The notes under the pieces were generated by a model. That model saw only the letters and a list, made by a program, of their open reading frames with translations, was not told the DNA's origin and made no database searches. A stretch of 64,000 nucleotides of DNA, taken from a virus. How positions within the stretch are numbered: position 1 is the stretch's first letter; every line of letters starts with the position of its first letter. Both the position numbers and the translations under genes were made by a program. The stretch is taken from IMG/VR virus record IMGVR_UViG_3300032173_000003, positions 23,021-87,020 of that record, one strand, 5' to 3'. Positions 2,793 to 17,690 of this stretch are shown here, one piece after another.

Positions 2793-3054
2793 CTATACTA
2801 GCATCCTTGGTCAAGTACTTCACAGTTTCCGGGTAAACTTGGCAGACTACCCAGAAGATGCAAAATCTGTTAGATGCCCTTGTCACATCCTTCACAAGCC
2901 AGCCGCTTTGCTTAGCAAAAGAGATGGCATCTTTTTTAAGGGCAAAAGTTGCCAAACCTTGCTCACGCAAGCTGGTTCCGGCTTTGCCCCTATGGTCGAG
3001 ATCGCGCATATTGAGAAAGGGATGGTGCAGGGTAGCCCCTGCTCTCATCCCCAT
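2764..3054 (-). CDS. hypothetical protein
   Basis: 96 aa minus-strand ORF. Confidence 0.5.
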   Translation of the reverse strand: MGMRAGATLHHPFLNMRDLDHRGKAGTSLREQGLATFALKKDAISFAKQSGWLVKDVTRASNRFCIFWVVCQVYPETVKYLTKDASIVEAPWPGLY

Positions 3055-3072
3055 TGTAGCACGGTTAGGCCG

Positions 3073-3303
3073 TCAGTATCCAGCGTTCAGAAAGAACTGA
3101 TACTTGTCTAACCAATTGACTAACGGGTTAGAGTCTTGTATGACATCATCACTTTGATTGACAAAGTTTTTGACAACCCAAATAATTTCTCTGAACTCTT
3201 GGTTACTCCAACACGGTTCCTTAAGTGGCACTTCTAAGTTAGGAGTTTTTTGCAAGAGAAGGTAAAGTTCTCTCTGTAGTGCCAAAAGCCTACCAGAGTT
3301 CAT
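3073..3303 (-). CDS. hypothetical protein
   Basis: 76 aa ORF with GGGTAAA motif upstream. Confidence 0.55.
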   Translation of the reverse strand: MNSGRLLALQRELYLLLQKTPNLEVPLKEPCWSNQEFREIIWVVKNFVNQSDDVIQDSNPLVNWLDKYQFFLNAGY

Positions 3304-4539: not shown

Positions 4540-5030
4540 TAGTTAATGTGCCTTTGAATTTTTTCTTCCTTTGTGGTACTCTAGTTTAATCCAGCTTAGT
4601 AAAGCCTGTGTATTTGCGACTTTTGCCGAATCTACCTCACAGTTTTTACCCTTCAATACACCGAGGTAATGATCTAGAGCTTCAATAGCAAGTTCGTGGT
4701 CTTGTAGAGAAATGAGAGACATCAGGGTGCATTCCATAGTGGGCGTGGAGCTAGCTTAGCCTTTTCAATTTTTACCCCCTCTACCTCCCTTTGTGCCGTC
4801 GCCAATTTCCTGGGACTCATCTGAGCTTCCCACTCTTTAGCCAAATCGCTCATGTCAATGTTGGATAGGTTTTTCATTTTGGACAGGGGATTAAGGTTTT
4901 GGCCAAAGGGTAAACCCGTGGCAATGCTCCTTGCGAGGATCGAACTTGCCTTAGGCGAATTAGGAGTTCGCTGCATTCGCCAGATTGCTAAAGGAGCTTT
5001 GACCCTATTATAGCATCTCTCCGGGGAAGG

Positions 5031-6416
5031 TCAACCCTCTTTCCAACCTCCCGGAACATTGACCCTTCTTTTTTGAGAGACTTCATTTTTGAGCCTAACT
5101 GCCCATACTGACCCTTCCTTTGAGATGGGGTTTTCTACGTCACAAAAAGATACAGGCCATACATCGAAGCGGTCTTTTAGCCGTTTAATCAGCTGGTAGA
5201 ACTCAGTGTCTGCTTCCGAGTTTGGTCCTAGCCTTGGCACTTGGATTTCCAAAGACCCAAAGAATCTGCCCATGCCTACATCGTAAGTTTCCAGAATCTT
5301 GCCATATGCTTTTCCACTTACAATATCATCTTCGGTCAGCTCCAAGAGACCTTCAATCATCTCTTTTGTGGGGGCTTTCCTGACATTTTCATCCTTGGAC
5401 GAGCGGCTAAATATAGAGTTATCAACAATGCGGTAGAATCTATTTAGATTGGCCAGCAAAGACTGCTTGTGCTCCCGAACCTTCCTTTGAACCTTCCTAA
5501 TGGTGTTACCTTTAAGCGGATTATAACCAACGATTTTGCAGAAGTACAGGTCTTCATAACTTTGGCCCTTCCTTAGGGTTTGAATCTCATTTGTTGCACA
5601 AGCGAGTAAGACTTGAAGTTCCCGTGAGCTGATTCCGTTAAACCCGCTAGGAAGGTTAGTAAGAACATAATCGGCAGCGGCTATCCAACCGAAATACGCA
5701 CGAGAGTAGTCACCCACCACTATCACATTGTCTGTATATGCCGTGTCATTGGGGTACTTTTCTAACCATTCTAGTCCAGGTAAGTACCGGGGGGCATGTT
5801 GATTGCTAGAGTAGGAAACTTTAAACTCAGGGATTAACTTAGCTACTTCTTCTTCAGTTTTTCTCTCTACAAGGGTAGGATCTAAGGGTTCTGAATGTCC
5901 GAGCAGATAGTACAAGTCCGGGGTAATAACATCCAGTGTCTCAGTCAGGAGCTTTAGGTCTTTCTTTCTCGATTCATACTCCTTCTGTTTAGTATTGTTT
6001 GATAGTGCCTCTAGCAGTTCTTCCCATTGCCCCTGAGTAATGGAGTCAACAAAATGCCAAAACTCTGACACCTTCCCCCAGTTTTCACCGAGGATTTTTT
6101 CAGGTTCGTTAAGTACGATGGCCGGACTCTGACTCGAAAGGTCATTAAACCTTCGCAGAAGAATGGAGTGAATCACACTTATTCCTAGGGTCTTGGCTGT
6201 AACTTCGTCAAGATTTAAGCCTGAGTTGCCGTACGTTAACCCTTTCCAAAAAGCTTGAAAGTCCATCACCCCCATACCCTTGGAAATCATAATCGCTTCA
6301 CTCTGGGCACAGGGGCTGAGACCGTTTTCCTCTCTCACCAGTTCGTATCCTTTGCCGGGCATACCCTCAAGCTGAGACCATTTTTTCGTGAGTTCTTTAA
6401 TTAGTGAAGTGTTCAT
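5031..6416 (-). CDS. hypothetical protein
   Basis: 461 aa ORF, no family recognised. Confidence 0.7.
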   Translation of the reverse strand: MNTSLIKELTKKWSQLEGMPGKGYELVREENGLSPCAQSEAIMISKGMGVMDFQAFWKGLTYGNSGLNLDEVTAKTLGISVIHSILLRRFNDLSSQSPAIVLNEPEKILGENWGKVSEFWHFVDSITQGQWEELLEALSNNTKQKEYESRKKDLKLLTETLDVITPDLYYLLGHSEPLDPTLVERKTEEEVAKLIPEFKVSYSSNQHAPRYLPGLEWLEKYPNDTAYTDNVIVVGDYSRAYFGWIAAADYVLTNLPSGFNGISSRELQVLLACATNEIQTLRKGQSYEDLYFCKIVGYNPLKGNTIRKVQRKVREHKQSLLANLNRFYRIVDNSIFSRSSKDENVRKAPTKEMIEGLLELTEDDIVSGKAYGKILETYDVGMGRFFGSLEIQVPRLGPNSEADTEFYQLIKRLKDRFDVWPVSFCDVENPISKEGSVWAVRLKNEVSQKRRVNVPGGWKEG

Positions 6417-12293: not shown

Positions 12294-12538
12294 TAGTTAG
12301 AACCCTCCAGCTCGGCGGCGATGGCTAGCAAGTAGCCGCGAGTCGTATTCTGCGCTAACCACTGGCCATATTCAAACTCGATGTTTGGGTCGGGGCGATC
12401 CGAAATCGGCACCACCAGATCAGCAGCAGCCCGCAGGGCGGCGGCAGCAATCCAAGGTGCATAGCACTCGGCATTAACTTCAAACAAGGCAGCATCCAGC
12501 ACGGCCTGAGCGGCGGGGGATAGCGGTTGGTCAGTCAT
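12293..12538 (-). CDS. small protein, LSPAAQAVLDA paralog family
   Basis: Paralogous to 16547..16792 and 22348..22608. Confidence 0.7.
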   Translation of the reverse strand: MTDQPLSPAAQAVLDAALFEVNAECYAPWIAAAALRAAADLVVPISDRPDPNIEFEYGQWLAQNTTRGYLLAIAAELEGSN

Positions 12539-13013
12539 TTGGCAGGGCCTCGGCGGCGATGGCAGGCATCGGCAGCGCCCAGTGGGGGAGCCAGTGGGTG
12601 TGAATGGTCTGATTGATCCTGGTCAGCTTCCAGTGATCCAGTACAGGATTAAACGCCCACACTGCTTCAAAAGGATTGCAATCAGAAAACTCAGGCCACC
12701 GCTCGCTCACCGGCTCGGGCTGGGCCAGGGCGGCGCGGGCTTTTTCAAGCACGTCTTCGATATTCAGGTCTAGATATGCGCTGCCACCCCTATCTTCGTC
12801 CAGCAGGTGCGGGGCCTCACCCCAGACCATTGTGTGAAGTTCCTGCAGCTGCTGGATCAGCTCAGCGCACAGGGCTTTGTAATCGGGGTCAGGCATTGAA
12901 ACTTTCTTCACTTGTGGGACCAGCGGCGTGGTGCTTGAATAAGGTATTCGGTAGGGTCTTCTCCACTTCGCCAAGCATTGCGTATTGCTTTGGGAAAGAA
13001 TGTTTGCCCACAA
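12531..13013 (-). CDS. hypothetical protein, ALCAEL..ARAALAQPE paralog family; likely start MPDP near 12896
   Basis: Shares modules with 22798..23529 and 19611..19850. Confidence 0.6.
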   Translation of the reverse strand: MWANILSQSNTQCLAKWRRPYRIPYSSTTPLVPQVKKVSMPDPDYKALCAELIQQLQELHTMVWGEAPHLLDEDRGGSAYLDLNIEDVLEKARAALAQPEPVSERWPEFSDCNPFEAVWAFNPVLDHWKLTRINQTIHTHWLPHWALPMPAIAAEALPND

Positions 13014-13336
13014 TTACTATAGCCGGCGCAAGATGCACCACTTTGATATGCAGATCCCGCCATGGGTTTGTATAAACCAGCGGCTTGGACCCACTCGCTA
13101 AAGGTAAGTCCTTCGCAGTTGATGTCGTGATAGGCCATGTTTATTGCGTTTTTAGGGTTGGGTTAATAAAAGATACTGATTCAGACCAGTATTCATTTGT
13201 AAGAGCCTTTTTGTTCAATTCCTCAACTCTGTCTTCCGCTTCTTTCAAGGTCTGATAAATCTCAAATGGACGGGCGGAAAATCTGGCAAGTGGGCTTTTA
13301 CGCTCTGTCATGACAACGTACATTTTTGAAGTCATT

Positions 13337-13615
13337 TCAGCTGGCCTCCTCCTGCAAATAGCCGAACAGCTCCTGTAACAGGGCGTTACCCGCAAGGTCC
13401 AGAGGGGCGGGGGCGGCCTTCATGTTGAACTCTTTGAGCAACCAGCGAGCAGCGGCTCTCCCAGATTCGGAGTAGGGCTCGGCAGTGGCCAGTTGCTGGA
13501 AGAAGGATACCCTGGCAGAACGGTCGCCAATGAAGAACTGACCGATAGTGTGGAAACCGACCAGACCTACGGTTCCGAAGAAAGCGCCAGGGGCAGCAGC
13601 GTATATGGTGCTCAC
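13337..13615 (-). CDS. hypothetical protein
   Basis: 92 aa ORF with promoter upstream. Confidence 0.55.
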   Translation of the reverse strand: MSTIYAAAPGAFFGTVGLVGFHTIGQFFIGDRSARVSFFQQLATAEPYSESGRAAARWLLKEFNMKAAPAPLDLAGNALLQELFGYLQEEAS

Positions 13616-13695
13616 GGGGTCACTTGGTTGACTACCCCCATATCATACCACAAAACCCAGACGGGTGCAACCTGCCTGGGCTTGTGGATTTGGAA

Positions 13696-13814
13696 TGGGA
13701 CCGGCAGGATTCGAACCATGCAACCACTCCTTTAAACGAGGTATTTTTTAATTGCTGATGTATCTTGTACAAGATAACTTTTATTTAGTGCTCTACCAGT
13801 TGAGCTACGGTCCC
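13696..13814 (-). ncRNA. tRNA-like RNA (Lys-like body) with stem-CAGCAA module in anticodon arm
   Basis: GGGACCG/CGGTCCC acceptor, GCTC/GAGC D arm, TTCGAAT T loop; insert TATCTTG-TA-CAAGATACATCAGCAA. Confidence 0.75.
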
Positions 13815-13844
13815 AAGTTTCCGGGTGTCTACCCCGGTTTTAAC

Positions 13845-13898
13845 TAGATAGTTGTTTTTCCTTTGGGTTAGCGAGAAGGTGTTTAGCTGAACTATCTA
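13845..13898 (-). ncRNA. small stem-CAGC RNA (Y-RNA-like candidate)
   Basis: TAGATAGTT-CAGCTAA...AAAAAC-AACTATCTA. Confidence 0.6.
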
Positions 13899-13918
13899 CG
13901 TTTTTCAAAGAAAAACAA

Positions 13919-14041
13919 TCGAAGAGGCAAGATTCGAACTTGCGTATAGCGGTTCCCTTAGTGTATTTAATTGCTGAATCATCTCTATCGAGATAATTTT
14001 TTTTTTACATGACCGCTGCCTGACCACTCGGCTACTCTTCG
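13919..14041 (-). ncRNA. tRNA-like RNA with stem-CAGCAA module in anticodon arm
   Basis: CGAAGAG/CTCTTCG acceptor, GCGGT/ACCGC stem, GCAAG-TTCGAAT-CTTGC T arm; insert TTATCTC-GATA-GAGATGATTCAGCAA. Confidence 0.75.
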
Positions 14042-14047
14042 TTATTC

Positions 14048-14132
14048 AAGGTGAGTTTTGCTGGATTTGAACCAGCTAACTTGGGGTGTTAAACCCCGCG
14101 TATTAACCTATTTTTAATAGCTGCCTCACCTT
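14048..14132 (-). ncRNA. stem-CAGC RNA enclosing D-like, anticodon-like and T arms
   Basis: AAGGTGAG-GCAGCTA...GCTGG-TTCAAAT-CCAGC-AAAA-CTCACCTT. Confidence 0.7.
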
Positions 14133-14159
14133 CTGAGGTTGTTTCCGTTAAACGGAAAA

Positions 14160-14278
14160 TCGGGGAAGAAGGAATCGAACCTCCGTCACGTCCTGTCTGA
14201 TGGAATTTTAGTAATTGCTGTCTGTACCTTAAACAAGATAACTGTTAATTACGTGTGCTACCACTGCACCATTCCCCA
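14160..14278 (-). ncRNA. tRNA-like RNA with stem-CAGCAA module in anticodon arm
   Basis: TGGGGAA/TTCCCCG acceptor, GTGC/GCAC D arm, TTCGATT T loop; insert TATCTTG-TT-TAAGGTACAGACAGCAA. Confidence 0.75.
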
Positions 14279-14324
14279 TTGTTGCCCCGGTAAACTACCG
14301 GGGGAAATTGACTTTAGTGAAACA

Positions 14325-14375
14325 AGATGGTTGGGTTTCTGTTGAAAAGAAAGGTTTTTGATTGCTGAACCATCT
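14325..14375 (-). ncRNA. small stem-CAGCAA RNA, first unit of array
   Basis: AGATGGTT-CAGCAA...TTTCT-TTTCAAC-AGAAA...AACCATCT. Confidence 0.65.
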
Positions 14376-14380
14376 GGGTG

Positions 14381-14409
14381 TATTATAGCAGTGTTGCTTG
14401 GGCGGTAAA
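14381..14409 (-). promoter_or_regulatory. sigma70-like promoter driving the ncRNA array
   Basis: TTTACC-N~17-TGcTATAAT; predicted start about 6-7 nt downstream, at the first stem. Confidence 0.7.
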
Positions 14410-14413
14410 CGGC

Positions 14414-14599
14414 CTACTTCTCGTGAGTGGCAAGCTGTAAAATCAACCAGAGGGCCGTAATCCCCAGCAAAAAGACAGGCACAAGTGTGGGGGCCATCAC
14501 GGTAAGCCAGGGCCAGGAGACCTGACCCGTTACTTTCAAAGTTATGAAAACGGTCTGCAGAACAGTGTTTAGAGCGCCCAGCAGTTTGAATTGGGTCAT
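14414..14599 (-). CDS. small membrane protein
   Basis: FITLKVTGQVSWPWLTVMAP, paralogous to 26889..27143. Confidence 0.65.
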   Translation of the reverse strand: MTQFKLLGALNTVLQTVFITLKVTGQVSWPWLTVMAPTLVPVFLLGITALWLILQLATHEK

Positions 14600-14901
14600 G
14601 AATCTTTACCGACGCTAGGATTGAAGGACTAAAACTAGGTACAGGGCAGGTGCCATACCAAACCGGGCAATATCCCGTTTTTCTAAACGTTATTTACCCC
14701 AAAGAAGCTGGAATAAGTTCCTCTTTCTTTTTCGTTTAGGGACATCTGTCCAGAAGTTCCTCACCGTAACTGTTTCACCGTTACCTAGGTCTATGTTTGA
14801 CGTAGGTTTGGAACGGTCCCGATTAAAGAACCCTTGCTGAAAAGCCTCAGAAATTGCAGGGTTTGCTAAGATGGCCCTGAGCTGGGGGGAAATGATGCCC
14901 T

Positions 14902-16368
14902 TCACGATAACCCGAACGCTGTACCAACTGGGGCGTAACGCTCGGCATAGACCGCATTCTTCATAACCTCGATGGGAGTAATCACCTTGCCGGTAAGAAC
15001 CGATGTGAGGATTGAAGGGCTGCAGCCAGAAACAAGGCAAGTGCCCGTATCGTGCATCTTCATGGGGACGTTGCCCCCGGCGTTAACATTCCAGAACACA
15101 AGCTCAGGCAAAGAATATCCAGCTTGGGCGTACTTGATTCGGATTGCTTCAAAGTTTGTAACTGAAGCCCCTGTGCAACACCGGTCAAACTCCATGTCTG
15201 AAACAATGATGAGCTTGCGGGGCATGTCTCCTTCGGGGACATTGTTTCTAACCGCAGTATTCAACACCAGGTTAAATACCGCTTGAAGGTCCGTACTCAT
15301 CCCCCAAGCTGCATTGGAAAGGTTCCTGATGCGTTGGGCAATTGTTTGACCAGTTACAGTTTGCAGTTCGGGAGTTGAAGAGAAAGTCAAGAACTTGTCT
15401 TTCCAGATCCCAGTGTTGCGCTCCGAGATATACATCGCCATAGAGATGGAAACTGCCATAGGAGTTCCATACATGGAGCCAGAGACGTCAGCAACAACAA
15501 GTCCGTTAAACTCTTGACCCTCCATGTAGTTAGGCAGAGCCTCCCACATTAGGTTCAGGGTTTGGTCACTGGATTCACCTTTGTTCAGGTACTTGTCTAC
15601 GATTTCGTAAGGATAGATGGTGCCAGCATTAATCTTAGCCTCACCCTTTTCAACAGCATTGAGGTACGTTTGGTAACGTTCCCCATCACGTTTTGCGAAA
15701 GCCTTGCGATACATAAAGCCAGCCCGAGAAGGCAACTTGCTGTAATCAATATTTTCCCATTCACGGGAGCACATTGCTTGTTCGACAATTCGGATTTGCG
15801 TACGAAGGGCGGTGAGAGCCTTGCGGTATTGGCGCTCAGACCAACCCATTGCTTCGGCAATCTTGCGGCCGATGCGCTTTGATTCTTTACTGGAAGCATT
15901 AACCGAAGGCAGCCACTTTGCAAGTAGGGAAACAGAGTTTCCTACTTCCGTATTCAAGTCAGTGGTAAGCTGAGTCTTGATGGCGTTCAAGGCAACATCC
16001 CAGACCAGGGTTCCCTCAAGTACCACCAAGTCGTCCCAACGTCCGAACTCAGGAATCAGACCGACAAGTTTAGCGCCGATTGTAGCGTCACTGCGCACAA
16101 GTTCCTTAAACAGTTCACGGAAGATTTTGCGCTCACCTTGGCCTCCACGAATGTCGCGAGCCCAAAATAGAATCCTGGCTGCAGTTTCTGCGTCTTCGGC
16201 GTAAGCCAGGTTGAATAGGCGAACGGCTTCAGGCACATTGTCACGGCAGGCCGCAATCTTACCAAAAAGGTCAAGATTCTTGGAACCTGTGGACTTATAG
16301 GCTTTTGCGCCGTTTGCAGTCGTGGTGGTATTGAAGTTGTTCTCTAGAGCGTTTAGAAATGTCGTCAT
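14902..16368 (-). CDS. DUF2828 family Ro60/TROVE-like protein with C-terminal vWA domain
   Basis: TANGA..STGS..LDLF, FWARDIRGGQGER, GRWDDL, SLLAKWLPS, VADVSGSM (MIDAS), SDMEFD, VFWNV, VSGCS. Confidence 0.85.
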   Translation of the reverse strand: MTTFLNALENNFNTTTTANGAKAYKSTGSKNLDLFGKIAACRDNVPEAVRLFNLAYAEDAETAARILFWARDIRGGQGERKIFRELFKELVRSDATIGAKLVGLIPEFGRWDDLVVLEGTLVWDVALNAIKTQLTTDLNTEVGNSVSLLAKWLPSVNASSKESKRIGRKIAEAMGWSERQYRKALTALRTQIRIVEQAMCSREWENIDYSKLPSRAGFMYRKAFAKRDGERYQTYLNAVEKGEAKINAGTIYPYEIVDKYLNKGESSDQTLNLMWEALPNYMEGQEFNGLVVADVSGSMYGTPMAVSISMAMYISERNTGIWKDKFLTFSSTPELQTVTGQTIAQRIRNLSNAAWGMSTDLQAVFNLVLNTAVRNNVPEGDMPRKLIIVSDMEFDRCCTGASVTNFEAIRIKYAQAGYSLPELVFWNVNAGGNVPMKMHDTGTCLVSGCSPSILTSVLTGKVITPIEVMKNAVYAERYAPVGTAFGLS

Positions 16369-16380
16369 TTTTCTTTGTGC

Positions 16381-16430
16381 AAGTTGATTGTTTTGTGTGT
16401 TTAAGATACAAGTTATGGCTGTATCAACTT
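16381..16430 (-). promoter_or_regulatory. stem-CAGC module in DUF2828 5' leader
   Basis: AAGTTGAT-ACAGCCA...AAAACA-ATCAACTT ending 12 nt before ATG; promoter TTTACC..TATACT at about 16464-16492. Confidence 0.6.
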
Positions 16431-16546
16431 TGATCCCGATGGCTGAACCACCGTTCTGTGCCTAGTATAGCAAGGGGGGCTAAGGGGGTAAACTCCGTTC
16501 CCGCTTCCTGGGTCTATTGTAGCACGGTGGAGGGAGGGTAAATGCC

Positions 16547-16792
16547 TCAGCTTTCCAACTCGTTTGCGATGGCAAGAAGTTCGTGTCGTATTAGTTGAGC
16601 TTTATGGTTCATCCCCCATATCATAGTTTCCCTATGATTTTCAAGATTTTCCTGAGGTTTGATTTCCATAAAAGGTAACAGCTCATTTACAGCAGTTCGC
16701 AGGGCGGTGGCCACTGCCGCTTCCAATTCGTCACAGTTTTCGTAGGCATCCCTAATTGCCTGTGCGACAGGAGACAGTGATTGGTCAGTCAT
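16547..16792 (-). CDS. small protein, LSPAAQAVLDA paralog family
   Basis: MTDQSLSPVAQAI...LLAIANELE. Confidence 0.65.
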   Translation of the reverse strand: MTDQSLSPVAQAIRDAYENCDELEAAVATALRTAVNELLPFMEIKPQENLENHRETMIWGMNHKAQLIRHELLAIANELES

Positions 16793-16887
16793 TTGGCAGG
16801 GCCTCCAGGGCGCGGCGGATTAGCTTTTCTTGATTCGTTGGTCCAAGCATGTGATCTTCGATTTCGGAAGGGATGATGTCCATTGTG

Positions 16888-17370
16888 TCAGAGTTTGAAA
16901 GGAGAGACGATAATACGAGGTTCAACATAAACAGGGCGGGTTTTGCCATTACCACTGGGGTCTGAACACATCACCCAAGACCCTTCTGCACTACTCGGAG
17001 AGAACAAACCATCGGGGTCTGCTTGAGGGAGAGTTGCACCAGCAGTGCCTACATACTTCTCAGGATTGGTGTATTGTGTGGCAGCAGGAATAGCATAACC
17101 GACAGAGTTACACAGAAACACAGGACGACCAGTAGTTTCAGGAACAGTGTAAGTATAAGTTACCAAACCGTCTTGGTCACGCATCTCAATAATCTGCTTC
17201 ATCAACTTACGTGTGCGGAAGTTTTTGATAGCAGGCATACCAGTTTGTGCCGTGCCCTCTTGAAGCATACGTTCTTGTTGTACTCGTTGCGTATCATCAG
17301 AACTTTCTGCACATCCAGTCAAGGTCACACCGAGAAAGGCAATGGAAGCAATAGCAAGAAAGGGTTTCAT
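16888..17370 (-). CDS. putative lipoprotein
   Basis: Lipobox LTGC; TQYTNP, PQADPDGLF, VYVEP. Confidence 0.75.
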   Translation of the reverse strand: MKPFLAIASIAFLGVTLTGCAESSDDTQRVQQERMLQEGTAQTGMPAIKNFRTRKLMKQIIEMRDQDGLVTYTYTVPETTGRPVFLCNSVGYAIPAATQYTNPEKYVGTAGATLPQADPDGLFSPSSAEGSWVMCSDPSGNGKTRPVYVEPRIIVSPFKL

Positions 17371-17372
17371 AA

Positions 17373-17690
17373 TCAGTTAGGGAGGTTGGAAATAAAAGAC
17401 TGAAGACCAGAAGGCATAGCATCAGCAGGAACTTCAATAGCACGATGCCTAATCACATCAGCAAGTGCTTTTTTGTGTTCGGGAGATGCTTTAATGTACT
17501 CAAATTGCATATTTTGCAACTCTTGCACAGCACCAGTTCGGAAAGACTTTGATTGCTCAAAAGTATTCCTCCGAACATTCTCGTACTTGGGGGCAAAGAA
17601 TGAGGTGAATAAAAGGTCATGGTAGGTGATGCCCCAGGTCAGGGCACCGACGCCTACCACACCACCAACAATAGCAAGAAAGGGTTTCAT
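17373..17690 (-). CDS. membrane-anchored hypothetical protein
   Basis: N-terminal TM, ENVRRNTFEQSKS. Confidence 0.7.
   Translation of the reverse strand: MKPFLAIVGGVVGVGALTWGITYHDLLFTSFFAPKYENVRRNTFEQSKSFRTGAVQELQNMQFEYIKASPEHKKALADVIRHRAIEVPADAMPSGLQSFISNLPN

What the first reader, a model, noticed from the sequence alone, without database searches (positions are those of the whole stretch)
16381..16455. Stem-CAGC module in the DUF2828 5' leader suggests autoregulation
Seen: AAGTTGAT-ACAGCCA...AAAACA-ATCAACTT lies between a TTTACC/TATACT promoter and the ATG, ending 12 nt upstream of it; a second GGTTCAGCCA lies at about 16440-16450. Inference: the protein binds its own mRNA leader and is titrated by the array RNAs. 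This is the strongest internal link between motif and protein.
Basis: partly seen in the sequence, partly recalled or inferred. Interest (0 to 1): 0.75.

Follow-up and report, generated by a model that had tools for sequence, protein, structure and literature searches.

The report
Partner-RNA handle in Ro60-like gene leader
A lake phage keeps a stripped-down copy of the short RNA "handle" carried by its Y-RNA-like small RNAs directly in front of the start codon of its Ro60-like protein gene, perhaps so that the protein limits its own synthesis, though no binding has been shown.

Summary
On the minus strand a promoter-like site (16492-16464) is followed by GGTTCAGCCA (16449-16440) and by AAGTTGAT-A-CAGCCAT...ATCAACTT (16430-16381), which ends 12 nt before the ATG of a DUF2828/DUF7788 gene. 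That protein's model folds like Ro60.

The element is not chance:
- The same arms plus CAGC sit 6-12 nt before the ATG in 9 of 10 distinct leaders of homologs at least 64% identical, Synechococcus phage B3 included. The tenth is decayed.
- Of 89 distinct homolog leaders, 33 carry a stem+CAGC module on the sense strand, 1 on the antisense strand, and shuffles give a mean of 1.2. Thirty end within 40 nt of the ATG, with 25 different arms.

- The second CAGC is a truncated remnant of an upstream module.
- The 8-bp stem is not the minimum-energy fold.
- Covariance models score this copy only weakly.

Autoregulation and titration remain inference. The main rival is a co-transcribed partner RNA, as with Y RNAs encoded upstream of rsr.

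The family is absent from Rfam 15 and from the papers I searched. It resembles YrlA and dictyostelid Class I RNAs. This scan has noted the system on other DNA (40 notes, at least 37 genomes); one note gives the same leader reading.

The parts
16464..16492 (-). Promoter-like site: TTTACC, 17-nt spacer, TATACT, with TG before the -10 box
   Evidence: It resembles the array promoter TTTACC-16-TATAAT at 14409-14382. A metatranscriptome contig of a relative (about 92% alike) covers 15854-16460 and stops about 4 nt after the -10 box. That is a weak hint only, because contigs cannot show a transcript start.
16437..16453 (-). Remnant of upstream module A. It holds the 'second' GGTTCAGCCA (16449-16440) and folds as the small hairpin CGGUGGU-UCA-GCCAUCG.
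   Evidence: The fold is. Relatives have an intact module here: L001, the L002 group, L011 and phage B3. The window keeps the 5' arm and CAGC but lacks the interior and the 3' arm.
16381..16430 (-). Leader module B: 5' arm 16430-16423, A 16422, CAGC 16421-16418, unstructured A/C-rich interior, 3' arm 16388-16381
   Evidence: Its arms and CAGC are invariant in 7 aligned clade leaders, while the arm spacing varies by roughly 25 to 50 nt. RNAalifold gives this 8-bp stem as the only shared structure.
16405..16425 (-). Competing local hairpin GAUACAG-CCAUAAC-UUGUAUC, which sequesters part of the 5' arm and CAG of the motif
   Evidence: It is part of the minimum-energy fold of the leader: -14 kcal/mol, z-score -0.38. 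By eye the same pairing is possible in L002, L004 and L005.
16366..16380 (-). 12-nt A-rich spacer (16380-16369) and the ATG (16368-16366)
   Evidence: There is no room for a separate promoter between the module and the start codon.
14902..16368 (-). Gene for the Ro60-like protein (DUF2828 + DUF7788/vWA), 488 aa
   Evidence: Pfam hits. AlphaFold2 model with pLDDT 88.9 and pTM 0.89. The 12 best listed Foldseek PDB hits (ranks 1-13, one rank omitted) are all Ro60/TROVE chains, E 4e-8 to 3e-4. The MIDAS residues D294, S296, S298, T359 and D391 are invariant in 44 sequences.
13696..14409 (-). Context: a second, similar promoter (14409-14382) and the array of handle RNAs and tRNA-like RNAs that would be the competing ligands
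   Evidence: R1 seeds lie at 14325-14375 and 13845-13898. tRNA bodies with inserts of about 58 nt carrying CAGCAAT lie at 14160-14278, 13919-14041 and 13696-13814.

Best explanation
Shown: the leader element is a real, conserved, payload-less copy of the 'handle' shared by this phage's small RNAs. The handle is a closing stem, then CAGC next to the 5' arm, then an A/C-rich strand before the 3' arm. The element lies inside the 5' untranslated region of the Ro60-like gene and ends 12 nt before the AUG.

Inferred: the Ro60-like protein recognises this handle on its partner RNAs. When protein exceeds free handle RNAs it also binds the leader copy, fixes the 8-bp stem against the competing local hairpin, and blocks the ribosome at the adjoining start region. 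This would be negative feedback by molecular mimicry. Abundant array RNAs would draw the protein off and relieve it.
For: 1. Orthologous conservation. AAAGTTGAT-N-CAGC...ATCAACTTG lies 6-12 nt before the ATG in 9 of 10 distinct leaders of homologs at least 64% identical: WIN, L001, the L002 group, the L007 group, L009, the L011 group, L087, L089 and Synechococcus phage B3. The interiors differ in sequence and length.
2. B is kept where module A is truncated (this window) and where my scan finds no A (L007/L008).
3. In the same starred clade, L093/L094 (48-49% identity) have promoter, module A, module B, GGAGG, ATG. Their arms are AAGATCATT/AATGATCTT, so pairs changed on both sides at the same position.
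4. Leader census. 33 of 89 distinct leaders have stem+CAGC on the sense strand, 1 of 89 on the antisense strand, and 100 shuffles give a mean of 1.2 and a maximum of 4. 30 of the 33 end within 40 nt of the ATG, with 25 distinct 5' arms. The other 11 letter orders of CAGC give 0-4 of 89. An SD-like tetramer starts within 3 nt after the arm in 12 of 33.
5. The 100 nt before the start codon is the densest place: 40 modules there, against 21 in -300..-100 and 16 in the first 100 nt downstream, over 93 distinct loci.
6. Leader-proximal copies have shorter and less structured interiors than other copies. Median length is 32 against 40 nt (p 0.0013) and median MFE is -1.3 against -3.2 kcal/mol. A T-arm box occurs in 0 of 33 against 20 of 202. 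This window's copy has an interior MFE of 0.
7. The protein folds like Ro60.
8. Modules cluster around the gene in complete genomes: 6 of 6 R1 hits lie within 6.4 kb of a 258-kb genome, and 4 of 4 lie within 2.2 kb in phage B3.
9. An RNA-library contig of a relative bridges the coding region, module B and remnant A.
Against: - No binding or repression data exist.
- The stem is not in the minimum-energy fold, and the leader folds no better than shuffles (z -0.38).
- There is no covariation within the close clade; all 8 pairs are invariant.
- Model scores are weak: R1 gives E 0.047, and R2 gives no window-wide hit.
- R1 recognises only 3 of the B-type leader sequences (WIN, L009, L011 group) at E<=10.
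- Modules in arrays are also packed 4-13 nt apart by eye, so closeness to the start codon may be mere compaction.
- 56 of 89 distinct leaders lack a module by my scan, and the label needs at least 17 changes on the protein tree.
- L088 let its copy decay.
- Y RNAs encoded upstream of Ro60 genes are a known layout with no feedback claimed.
- The motif here is CAGCCA, not the usual CAGCAA, which 23 of the 33 leader copies have.
Confidence: 0.4

Rival explanations
1. Co-transcribed partner RNA. Module B is simply the last unit of an upstream handle-RNA array. It is transcribed with the gene, cut out of the precursor, and then acts in trans as one more ligand of the protein. There is no feedback on translation.
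For: - Y RNAs lie upstream of Ro60 genes. In M. smegmatis they are 'processed from a single precursor', in D. radiodurans they are upstream of rsr (passages read), and in Thermus phage phiLo Yrl1/Yrl2 are upstream (passages read).
- Many homologs have 2 tandem modules before the gene: L011, L024, L078, L093 and L100.
- In L011 and L009 the modules follow a tRNA, so processing must occur there.
- Tight spacing is usual in these arrays.
Against: - This phage already has a separately promoted array downstream.
- Module A in the same leader was allowed to decay while B was kept.
- Leader-proximal copies are payload-poor.
- A contig from an RNA library bridges module B and the coding region. This is weak, because DNA can be present in such libraries.
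Confidence: 0.35
2. A cis element that does not involve the Ro60-like protein. It could be a 5' stem that stabilises the mRNA, a processing site for a host or phage RNase, or an A/C-rich translation enhancer held in a loop.
For: - The interior and spacer are A/C-rich and unstructured.
- Transcripts appear to begin close to the first module at both promoters.
- The protein-RNA link rests only on neighbourhood and on analogy with Ro60.
Against: - CAGC is as invariant as the arms in the clade.
- CAGC is specific among its 12 letter orders: 33 of 89 against 0-4 of 89.
- The same handle is carried by free RNAs that travel with this gene in very different phages.
Confidence: 0.12
3. A decaying relic of an ancestral upstream array with no present function in this phage, like remnant A beside it.
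For: - The motif is non-canonical (CAGCCA) and model scores are weak.
- The stem is not in the minimum-energy fold.
- L088 shows that decay happens.
Against: - The arms and CAGC are letter-for-letter invariant across relatives down to 64% protein identity, while the interior has turned over.
- CAGCCAT is also the motif of array modules in phage B3.
Confidence: 0.08
4. A DNA-level inverted repeat, such as an operator for a transcription factor, or a chance match.
For: The two arms form a perfect 8-bp inverted repeat near a promoter-like site.
Against: - The spacing between arms varies by roughly 25 to 50 nt among orthologs. An RNA stem tolerates this; a dimeric DNA site does not.
- Strand bias is strong: 164 sense modules against 13 antisense.
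- Chance is excluded by the conservation and by the shuffles.
Confidence: 0.03

Closest known systems
Ro60/Rsr with Y RNAs: bacterial and phage YrlA/YrlB (Rfam RF02553; Chen et al. 2014, PMC4201824) and Thermus phage phiLo Ro60 with Yrl1/Yrl2 (PMC12135203)
   Same: A ring-shaped HEAT-repeat plus vWA protein, here by fold. Small RNAs are closed by a stem joining their 5' and 3' ends, some carry tRNA-like parts, and they are encoded next to and often upstream of the protein gene on the same strand. In mycobacteriophage Breezona the middle of three stem-CAGCAA modules behind the 'Ro-like RNA binding protein' gene gets a sub-threshold YrlA match: 21.7 bits against a cut-off of 69.
   Different: The protein matches Pfam DUF2828/DUF7788, not TROVE. 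No Rfam family reaches E<=5 on the leader or the free modules. The conserved letters are CAGC(A)A next to the 5' arm, not the CGAA motif quoted for Y RNAs. No feedback through the gene's own leader is claimed in the passages I read, nor in the listing.
Translational operators that mimic the protein's main RNA ligand (E. coli thrS operator, ribosomal-protein operators, T4 gp32 and RegA). These are recalled from general knowledge, not from a call.
   Same: A weaker or simplified copy of the ligand's recognition element sits in the protein's own mRNA at the ribosome-binding region. Free ligand competes with it.
   Different: Here neither binding nor repression is shown. The element ends 12 nt before the AUG and does not cover it.
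Class I RNAs of dictyostelid social amoebas (PMC7919456; search pattern printed in PMC5054030)
   Same: They are 42-65 nt long. A short stem joins the 5' and 3' ends, with structure conserved rather than sequence. A conserved motif of about 11 nt lies next to the 5' arm, the remainder is variable, and the RNAs start with AAG. The pattern printed for D. discoideum is GTTGRCCTTACAGCAA, then 0-120 nt, then GTCAACTG. That is a stem, a few letters, then CAGCAA. The window's leader arms AAGTTGAT/ATCAACTT are close to it.
   Different: They are eukaryotic and have their own promoter element. The only direct binder reported is the RRM protein Rnp1A. That paper found no Class I RNAs outside Dictyostelia. 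I did not test whether dictyostelids carry DUF2828. The likeness of the arms may be coincidence.
Bas63 gp130 (PhageMaP preprint, PMC11482910)
   Same: A Felixounavirus protein described as structurally like Ro60. It sits directly upstream of the tRNA genes, counters the Ppl defence system, and its authors guess that some 'tRNA' genes are Y RNAs. In Felixounavirus EC6 I find 4 stem-(tta)-CAGCAA modules among the tRNAs behind the DUF2828 gene.
   Different: I did not verify that gp130 is the DUF2828 homolog. EC6 has no module in the gene's leader.

Membership tests
Stem-CAGC(A)A 'handle' RNAs that accompany DUF2828 genes (not in Rfam 15) | Closing stem of at least 7 bp joining the two ends of the element | tested here: met
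   8 Watson-Crick pairs, 16430-16423 with 16388-16381. It is the RNAalifold consensus of 7 clade leaders. It is not in the single-sequence minimum-energy fold.
Stem-CAGC(A)A 'handle' RNAs that accompany DUF2828 genes (not in Rfam 15) | CAGCAA within 0-4 nt after the 5' arm | tested here: inconclusive
   CAGC follows the arm after 1 nt, but the next letters are CA, not AA. 23 of 33 leader copies have CAGCAA. CAGCCAT also occurs in array modules of phage B3.
Stem-CAGC(A)A 'handle' RNAs that accompany DUF2828 genes (not in Rfam 15) | A-rich strand before the 3' arm | tested here: met
   CACAAAACA precedes the 3' arm. The mean A fraction in the 8 nt before the arm is 0.56, against 0.40 for the whole leader, over 33 leader copies.
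Stem-CAGC(A)A 'handle' RNAs that accompany DUF2828 genes (not in Rfam 15) | Significant match to a covariance model built without it | tested here: inconclusive
   R1: 20.4 bits, E 0.047, best non-seed hit. R2: no hit window-wide at E<=10; 13.7 bits with filters off, above the accepted array member 13845-13898 at 11.8 bits.
Stem-CAGC(A)A 'handle' RNAs that accompany DUF2828 genes (not in Rfam 15) | Same strand as, and next to, a DUF2828 gene | tested here: met
   It lies 12 nt upstream on the same strand. Family-wide strand bias is 164 sense against 13 antisense.
Y RNA / YrlA (Rfam RF00019, RF02553) | Match to the Rfam model | tested here: not met
   There is no Y RNA or YrlA match at gathering threshold in the window, nor at E<=5 in 12500-17500.
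Y RNA / YrlA (Rfam RF00019, RF02553) | tRNA-like domain (T and D arms) inside the stem | tested here: not met
   The leader interior is 29 nt, unstructured (MFE 0), and has no T-arm box.
Autoregulatory translational operator (molecular mimicry) | The element resembles the protein's RNA ligand and lies in the translation initiation region of the protein's own mRNA | tested here: met
   It shares the handle with the array RNAs. It ends 12 nt before the AUG with no room for a promoter in between. That the array RNAs are ligands of this protein is itself inferred.
Autoregulatory translational operator (molecular mimicry) | The protein binds the element and represses its own translation | not testable with these tools
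   Binding and reporter assays are needed. No protein-RNA fold tool was available.
Ro60/TROVE proteins (for the gene product) | HEAT-repeat ring plus vWA domain with a MIDAS site | tested here: met
   Full-length Foldseek matches to Ro60 chains, TM 0.35-0.56. DxSxS, T and D are invariant.
Ro60/TROVE proteins (for the gene product) | Sequence match to Pfam TROVE | tested here: not met
   Only DUF7788 and DUF2828 are found at E<=0.01.
Dictyostelid Class I RNA | Short terminal stem plus the conserved 11-nt motif next to the 5' arm | tested here: inconclusive
   Architecture and size fit (50 nt). The printed pattern ends in TTACAGCAA, whereas the leader has TACAGCCA. No model was run.

The most novel reading that the evidence does not exclude
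The handle in the leader is a translational operator. Through it a phage Ro60-like protein measures the free pool of its own handle RNAs and sets its synthesis accordingly. This would be the first feedback loop described for any Ro60-family RNP. It would recur in about a third of phage DUF2828 genes. It would be built on an RNA handle that may be the same as that of the unexplained Class I RNAs of social amoebas.
Probability: 0.3. Interest if true: 0.75.

Novelty: new variant of a known kind. Interest (0 to 1): 0.6.

Why it matters
Ro60-Y RNA particles are known from animals to bacteria, yet how their protein and RNA levels are matched is unclear. Here a Ro60-like protein is present in 711 of 50,697 deposited phage genomes and in phages of E. 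coli, Salmonella, Listeria, Mycobacterium and cyanobacteria. It travels with a small RNA family that is absent from Rfam.

The leader copy gives a simple, testable handle on the system. One 50-nt RNA, one protein and a reporter would show whether the protein recognises the stem-CAGC handle and whether it controls itself. A Felixounavirus Ro60-like protein has been reported to counter the Ppl defence system, so the RNP probably matters in phage-host conflict.

Tried and rejected
- Simple motif counts in the window were not significant. A loose stem+CAGC scan had a high background of 19 and 26 hits. I therefore dropped both as evidence.
- MAFFT could not align modules with different interior lengths. 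Two attempts left one row out of register, and I used the third.
- The pair counts show 98.8% of cells paired, all 7 pairs with changes on both sides, and 0 of 500 shuffles as high. They were made on sequences that my scan had picked for pairing. They document diversity of arms, not independent proof of the stem.
- R2 did not find the leader window-wide.
- R1 found nothing in Felixounavirus EC6, although the pattern scan finds 4 modules there. R1 is too narrow for distant members.
- R1 found no further copy in the 23 kb of the phage record outside the window.
- The protein atlas gave only DUF2828 clusters and nothing on eukaryotes.
- RNA runs: only two metatranscriptome runs held small shares, and only as contigs. 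They cannot show starts, ends or levels, and parts without cover mean nothing.
- Paper searches for DUF2828 (5 papers, none on phages or RNA), Ro60/Y RNA/bacteriophage/tRNA-like, Ro60/phage/noncoding RNA/anti-phage, Felixounavirus+Ro60 and Ro60/Y RNA/autoregulat/own mRNA gave no description of this RNA family or of a leader operator.
- Supplements were closed. Supplemental Table S2 of Chen et al. 2014, which lists phage YrlA RNAs, may already include some T-arm-bearing members.
- My scan needs at least 7 contiguous pairs, so it misses real copies with 6 pairs, for example L095 and L100 by eye. The figure of 33 of 89 is therefore a lower bound.
- The leaders dropped before the count are the 11 of 163 with under 150 nt upstream.

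Full report
**What is there.**
The finding lies on the minus strand, in the 178-nt gap between a small ORF (ending at 16547) and the 488-aa ORF 14902-16368. Reading 5' to 3':
- a promoter-like site, TTTACC (16492-16487), 17 nt, TATACT (16469-16464), with TG before the -10 box;
- GGTTCAGCCA (16449-16440);
- AAGTTGAT (16430-16423), A, CAGC (16421-16418), a 29-nt A/C-rich interior, ATCAACTT (16388-16381);
- 12 nt, then the ATG.

**The protein.**
Pfam finds DUF7788 (4.6e-49) and DUF2828 (5.2e-35), and no TROVE domain. An AlphaFold2 model from a 44-sequence alignment is confident, with pLDDT 88.9 and pTM 0.89. Its 12 best listed Foldseek matches in the PDB (ranks 1-13, one rank omitted) are all Ro60/TROVE chains: Xenopus and human Ro60, D. 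radiodurans Rsr, and Thermus phage phiLo Ro60. They have E 4e-8 to 3e-4, match over the full length, and have TM 0.35-0.56. The MIDAS residues of the vWA domain are invariant. It is therefore Ro60-like by fold, in a different sequence family. Homologs are in 711 of 50,697 deposited phage genomes. Some mycobacteriophage copies are annotated 'Ro-like RNA binding protein'.

**The RNA family.**
Downstream of the gene a second, similar promoter (14409-14382) heads an array of small RNAs. More copies sit in the tRNA cluster 38 kb away. The free units share three features:
- a closing stem;
- CAGC(A/T)A directly after the 5' arm;
- an A-rich strand before the 3' arm.

Rfam 15 reports only tRNA-type matches in this region.

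The same handle accompanies the gene in very different phages:
- Synechococcus phage B3, in the leader and downstream;
- Felixounavirus EC6, with 4 modules among the tRNAs;
- mycobacteriophage Breezona, with 3 modules behind the gene, the middle one with a tRNA-like core and a sub-threshold YrlA match.

Over 93 distinct loci (of 162), 69 hold at least one stem+CAGCAA module on the gene's strand outside the coding region, against 12 on the other strand. That is 164 modules against 13. In a complete 258-kb relative all 6 R1 matches lie within 6.4 kb around the gene. In phage B3 all 4 lie within 2.2 kb.

**Is the leader copy real?**
Taken alone it is weak.
- R1 was built from 12 free modules without any leader copy. 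It ranks the leader as the best non-seed match in the window, at 20.4 bits and E 0.047.
- R2 was built from 12 leader modules of distant homologs. It does not report the leader window-wide. With filters off it gives 13.7 bits, still above one accepted array member.
- The minimum-energy fold uses two local hairpins instead of the 8-bp stem and is no better than shuffles.

Comparison settles it.
- In 9 of 10 distinct leaders of homologs at least 64% identical, cultured phage B3 included, AAAGTTGAT-N-CAGC...ATCAACTTG lies 6-12 nt before the ATG. The interior changes in sequence and length. The tenth, L088, has a decayed copy with CAAC and one arm mismatch.
- RNAalifold finds the 8-bp stem as the only structure shared by 7 of these leaders, with no covariation because the arms never vary.
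- One step further out, L093/L094 (48-49% identity, same starred clade) have promoter, module A, module B, GGAGG, ATG with arms AAGATCATT/AATGATCTT. Pairs there have changed on both sides.

**The wider census.**
I had 152 leaders with at least 150 nt upstream, which reduce to 89 distinct ones.
- 33 carry a stem (at least 7 bp, at most 1 G-U) plus CAGC on the sense strand. One does so on the antisense strand. 100 dinucleotide shuffles give a mean of 1.2 and a maximum of 4.
- The other 11 letter orders of CAGC give 0-4 of 89.
- In 30 of the 33 the last 3' arm ends within 40 nt of the ATG. There are 25 different 5' arms. An SD-like tetramer begins within 3 nt of the arm in 12 of the 33.
- The 100 nt before the start codon is the densest place for these modules.
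- On the protein tree the leader copies are scattered on both sides of the midpoint and need at least 17 changes, so the layout is old or recurrent and often lost.
- 56 of 89 distinct leaders have none by my scan. An 18-row gut-phage clade carries a different conserved hairpin instead.

**The second CAGC.**
Relatives have an intact module A between the promoter and B (L001, the L002 group, L011, B3). The window keeps its 5' arm and CAGC but has lost the interior and the 3' arm. What remains folds as a 7-bp hairpin. It is a remnant, not a second module.

**Mechanism.**
Shown: a conserved handle copy lies inside the gene's 5' untranslated region and abuts the start region. There is no room for a promoter between it and the ATG. 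A contig from an RNA library of a relative about 92% alike bridges the coding region, B and remnant A, and stops about 4 nt after the -10 box. This is weak, since contigs cannot show transcript starts.

Inferred: the Ro60-like protein binds the handle. Bound to the leader, it would hold the stem against the competing hairpin 16405-16425 and hinder the ribosome. Free array RNAs would compete.

Three observations favour a cis role over 'just another partner RNA':
- B is kept while A decays.
- B is kept although a separately promoted array exists.
- Leader-proximal copies are shorter, less structured and never carry a T-arm. Median interior is 32 against 40 nt (p 0.0013), and 0 of 33 against 20 of 202 have a T-arm box.

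Three observations weigh against it:
- Arrays are tightly packed anyway.
- Y RNAs upstream of Ro60 genes, processed from one precursor, are an established layout.
- Nothing here measures binding.

I put the operator reading at 0.4 and the co-transcribed-partner reading at 0.35.

**What is known.**
The closest system is Ro60/Rsr with YrlA-type Y RNAs. The closest logic is feedback by molecular mimicry, which I recall from general knowledge. The closest RNA by form is the dictyostelid Class I RNA. It has a short terminal stem and an 11-nt motif next to the 5' arm, and the printed pattern is GTTGRCCTTACAGCAA...GTCAACTG.

For all papers I read passages found by term search, not whole texts. Supplements were closed.

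Earlier notes of this scan describe the same RNP on other genomes: 40 notes in at least 37 genomes. One gives the same leader and ribosome-binding-site reading on another cyanophage.

Noticed in passing
window 14160-14279 (minus strand): A 130-nt contig from a metatranscriptome run covers the tRNA-like RNA. It then runs on with letters that equal the RNA's 3' end plus two non-templated C, joined to its 5' end. A second contig 'goes back 37'. This looks like a CCA-tailed molecule read across a circular or tandem junction. Depth is about 2.5-4, from one run only.
   Followed up: no
L027, L035, L047-L056, L058, L063, L066, L070, L073, L079: the last ~50 nt before the ATG: An 18-row gut-phage clade of DUF2828 genes has no CAGC module in the leader. 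It has a conserved hairpin CCTCTTG-TCC-AAGAGG between a TATAAT box and the SD. L056/L058 have a compensatory variant, CCTCTCG...CGAGAGG. This may be a different leader element for the same gene.
   Followed up: no
L163 (Mycobacterium phage Breezona, KC691254) 2915-3172: Three stem-(taa/ta)-CAGCAA modules follow the 'Ro-like RNA binding protein' gene. The middle one (2976-3100) holds T and D arms and gets a sub-threshold Rfam YrlA match (21.7 bits, cut-off 69). This links the handle family to YrlA-type Y RNAs.
   Followed up: partly
L082 (Escherichia phage EC6, NC_027369) 4665-5433: Four modules of the form AGACCGN-tta-CAGCAAA...NCGGTCT lie between tRNA genes behind the DUF2828 'RNA-binding protein' gene. 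No Rfam family covers them.
   Followed up: partly
window 14382-14409 and 16464-16492 (minus strand): The two promoter-like sites are near-copies: TTTACC...TGCTATAAT at the array and TTTACC...TGCTATACT at the leader. Each is followed after 6-11 nt by (A/G)G(A/T)GGTTCAGC(A/C)ATC. This suggests duplication of a promoter-plus-module-start cassette.
   Followed up: no
L088 (64% identical homolog), leader: The orthologous leader module is decayed. CAGC has become CAAC, one arm pair is broken and the interior is about 16 nt, directly after a TTGACA-17-TACTAT promoter.
   Followed up: no
window 16381-16430 compared with the pattern in PMC5054030: [quoted passage not shown] This may be coincidence.
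   Followed up: partly
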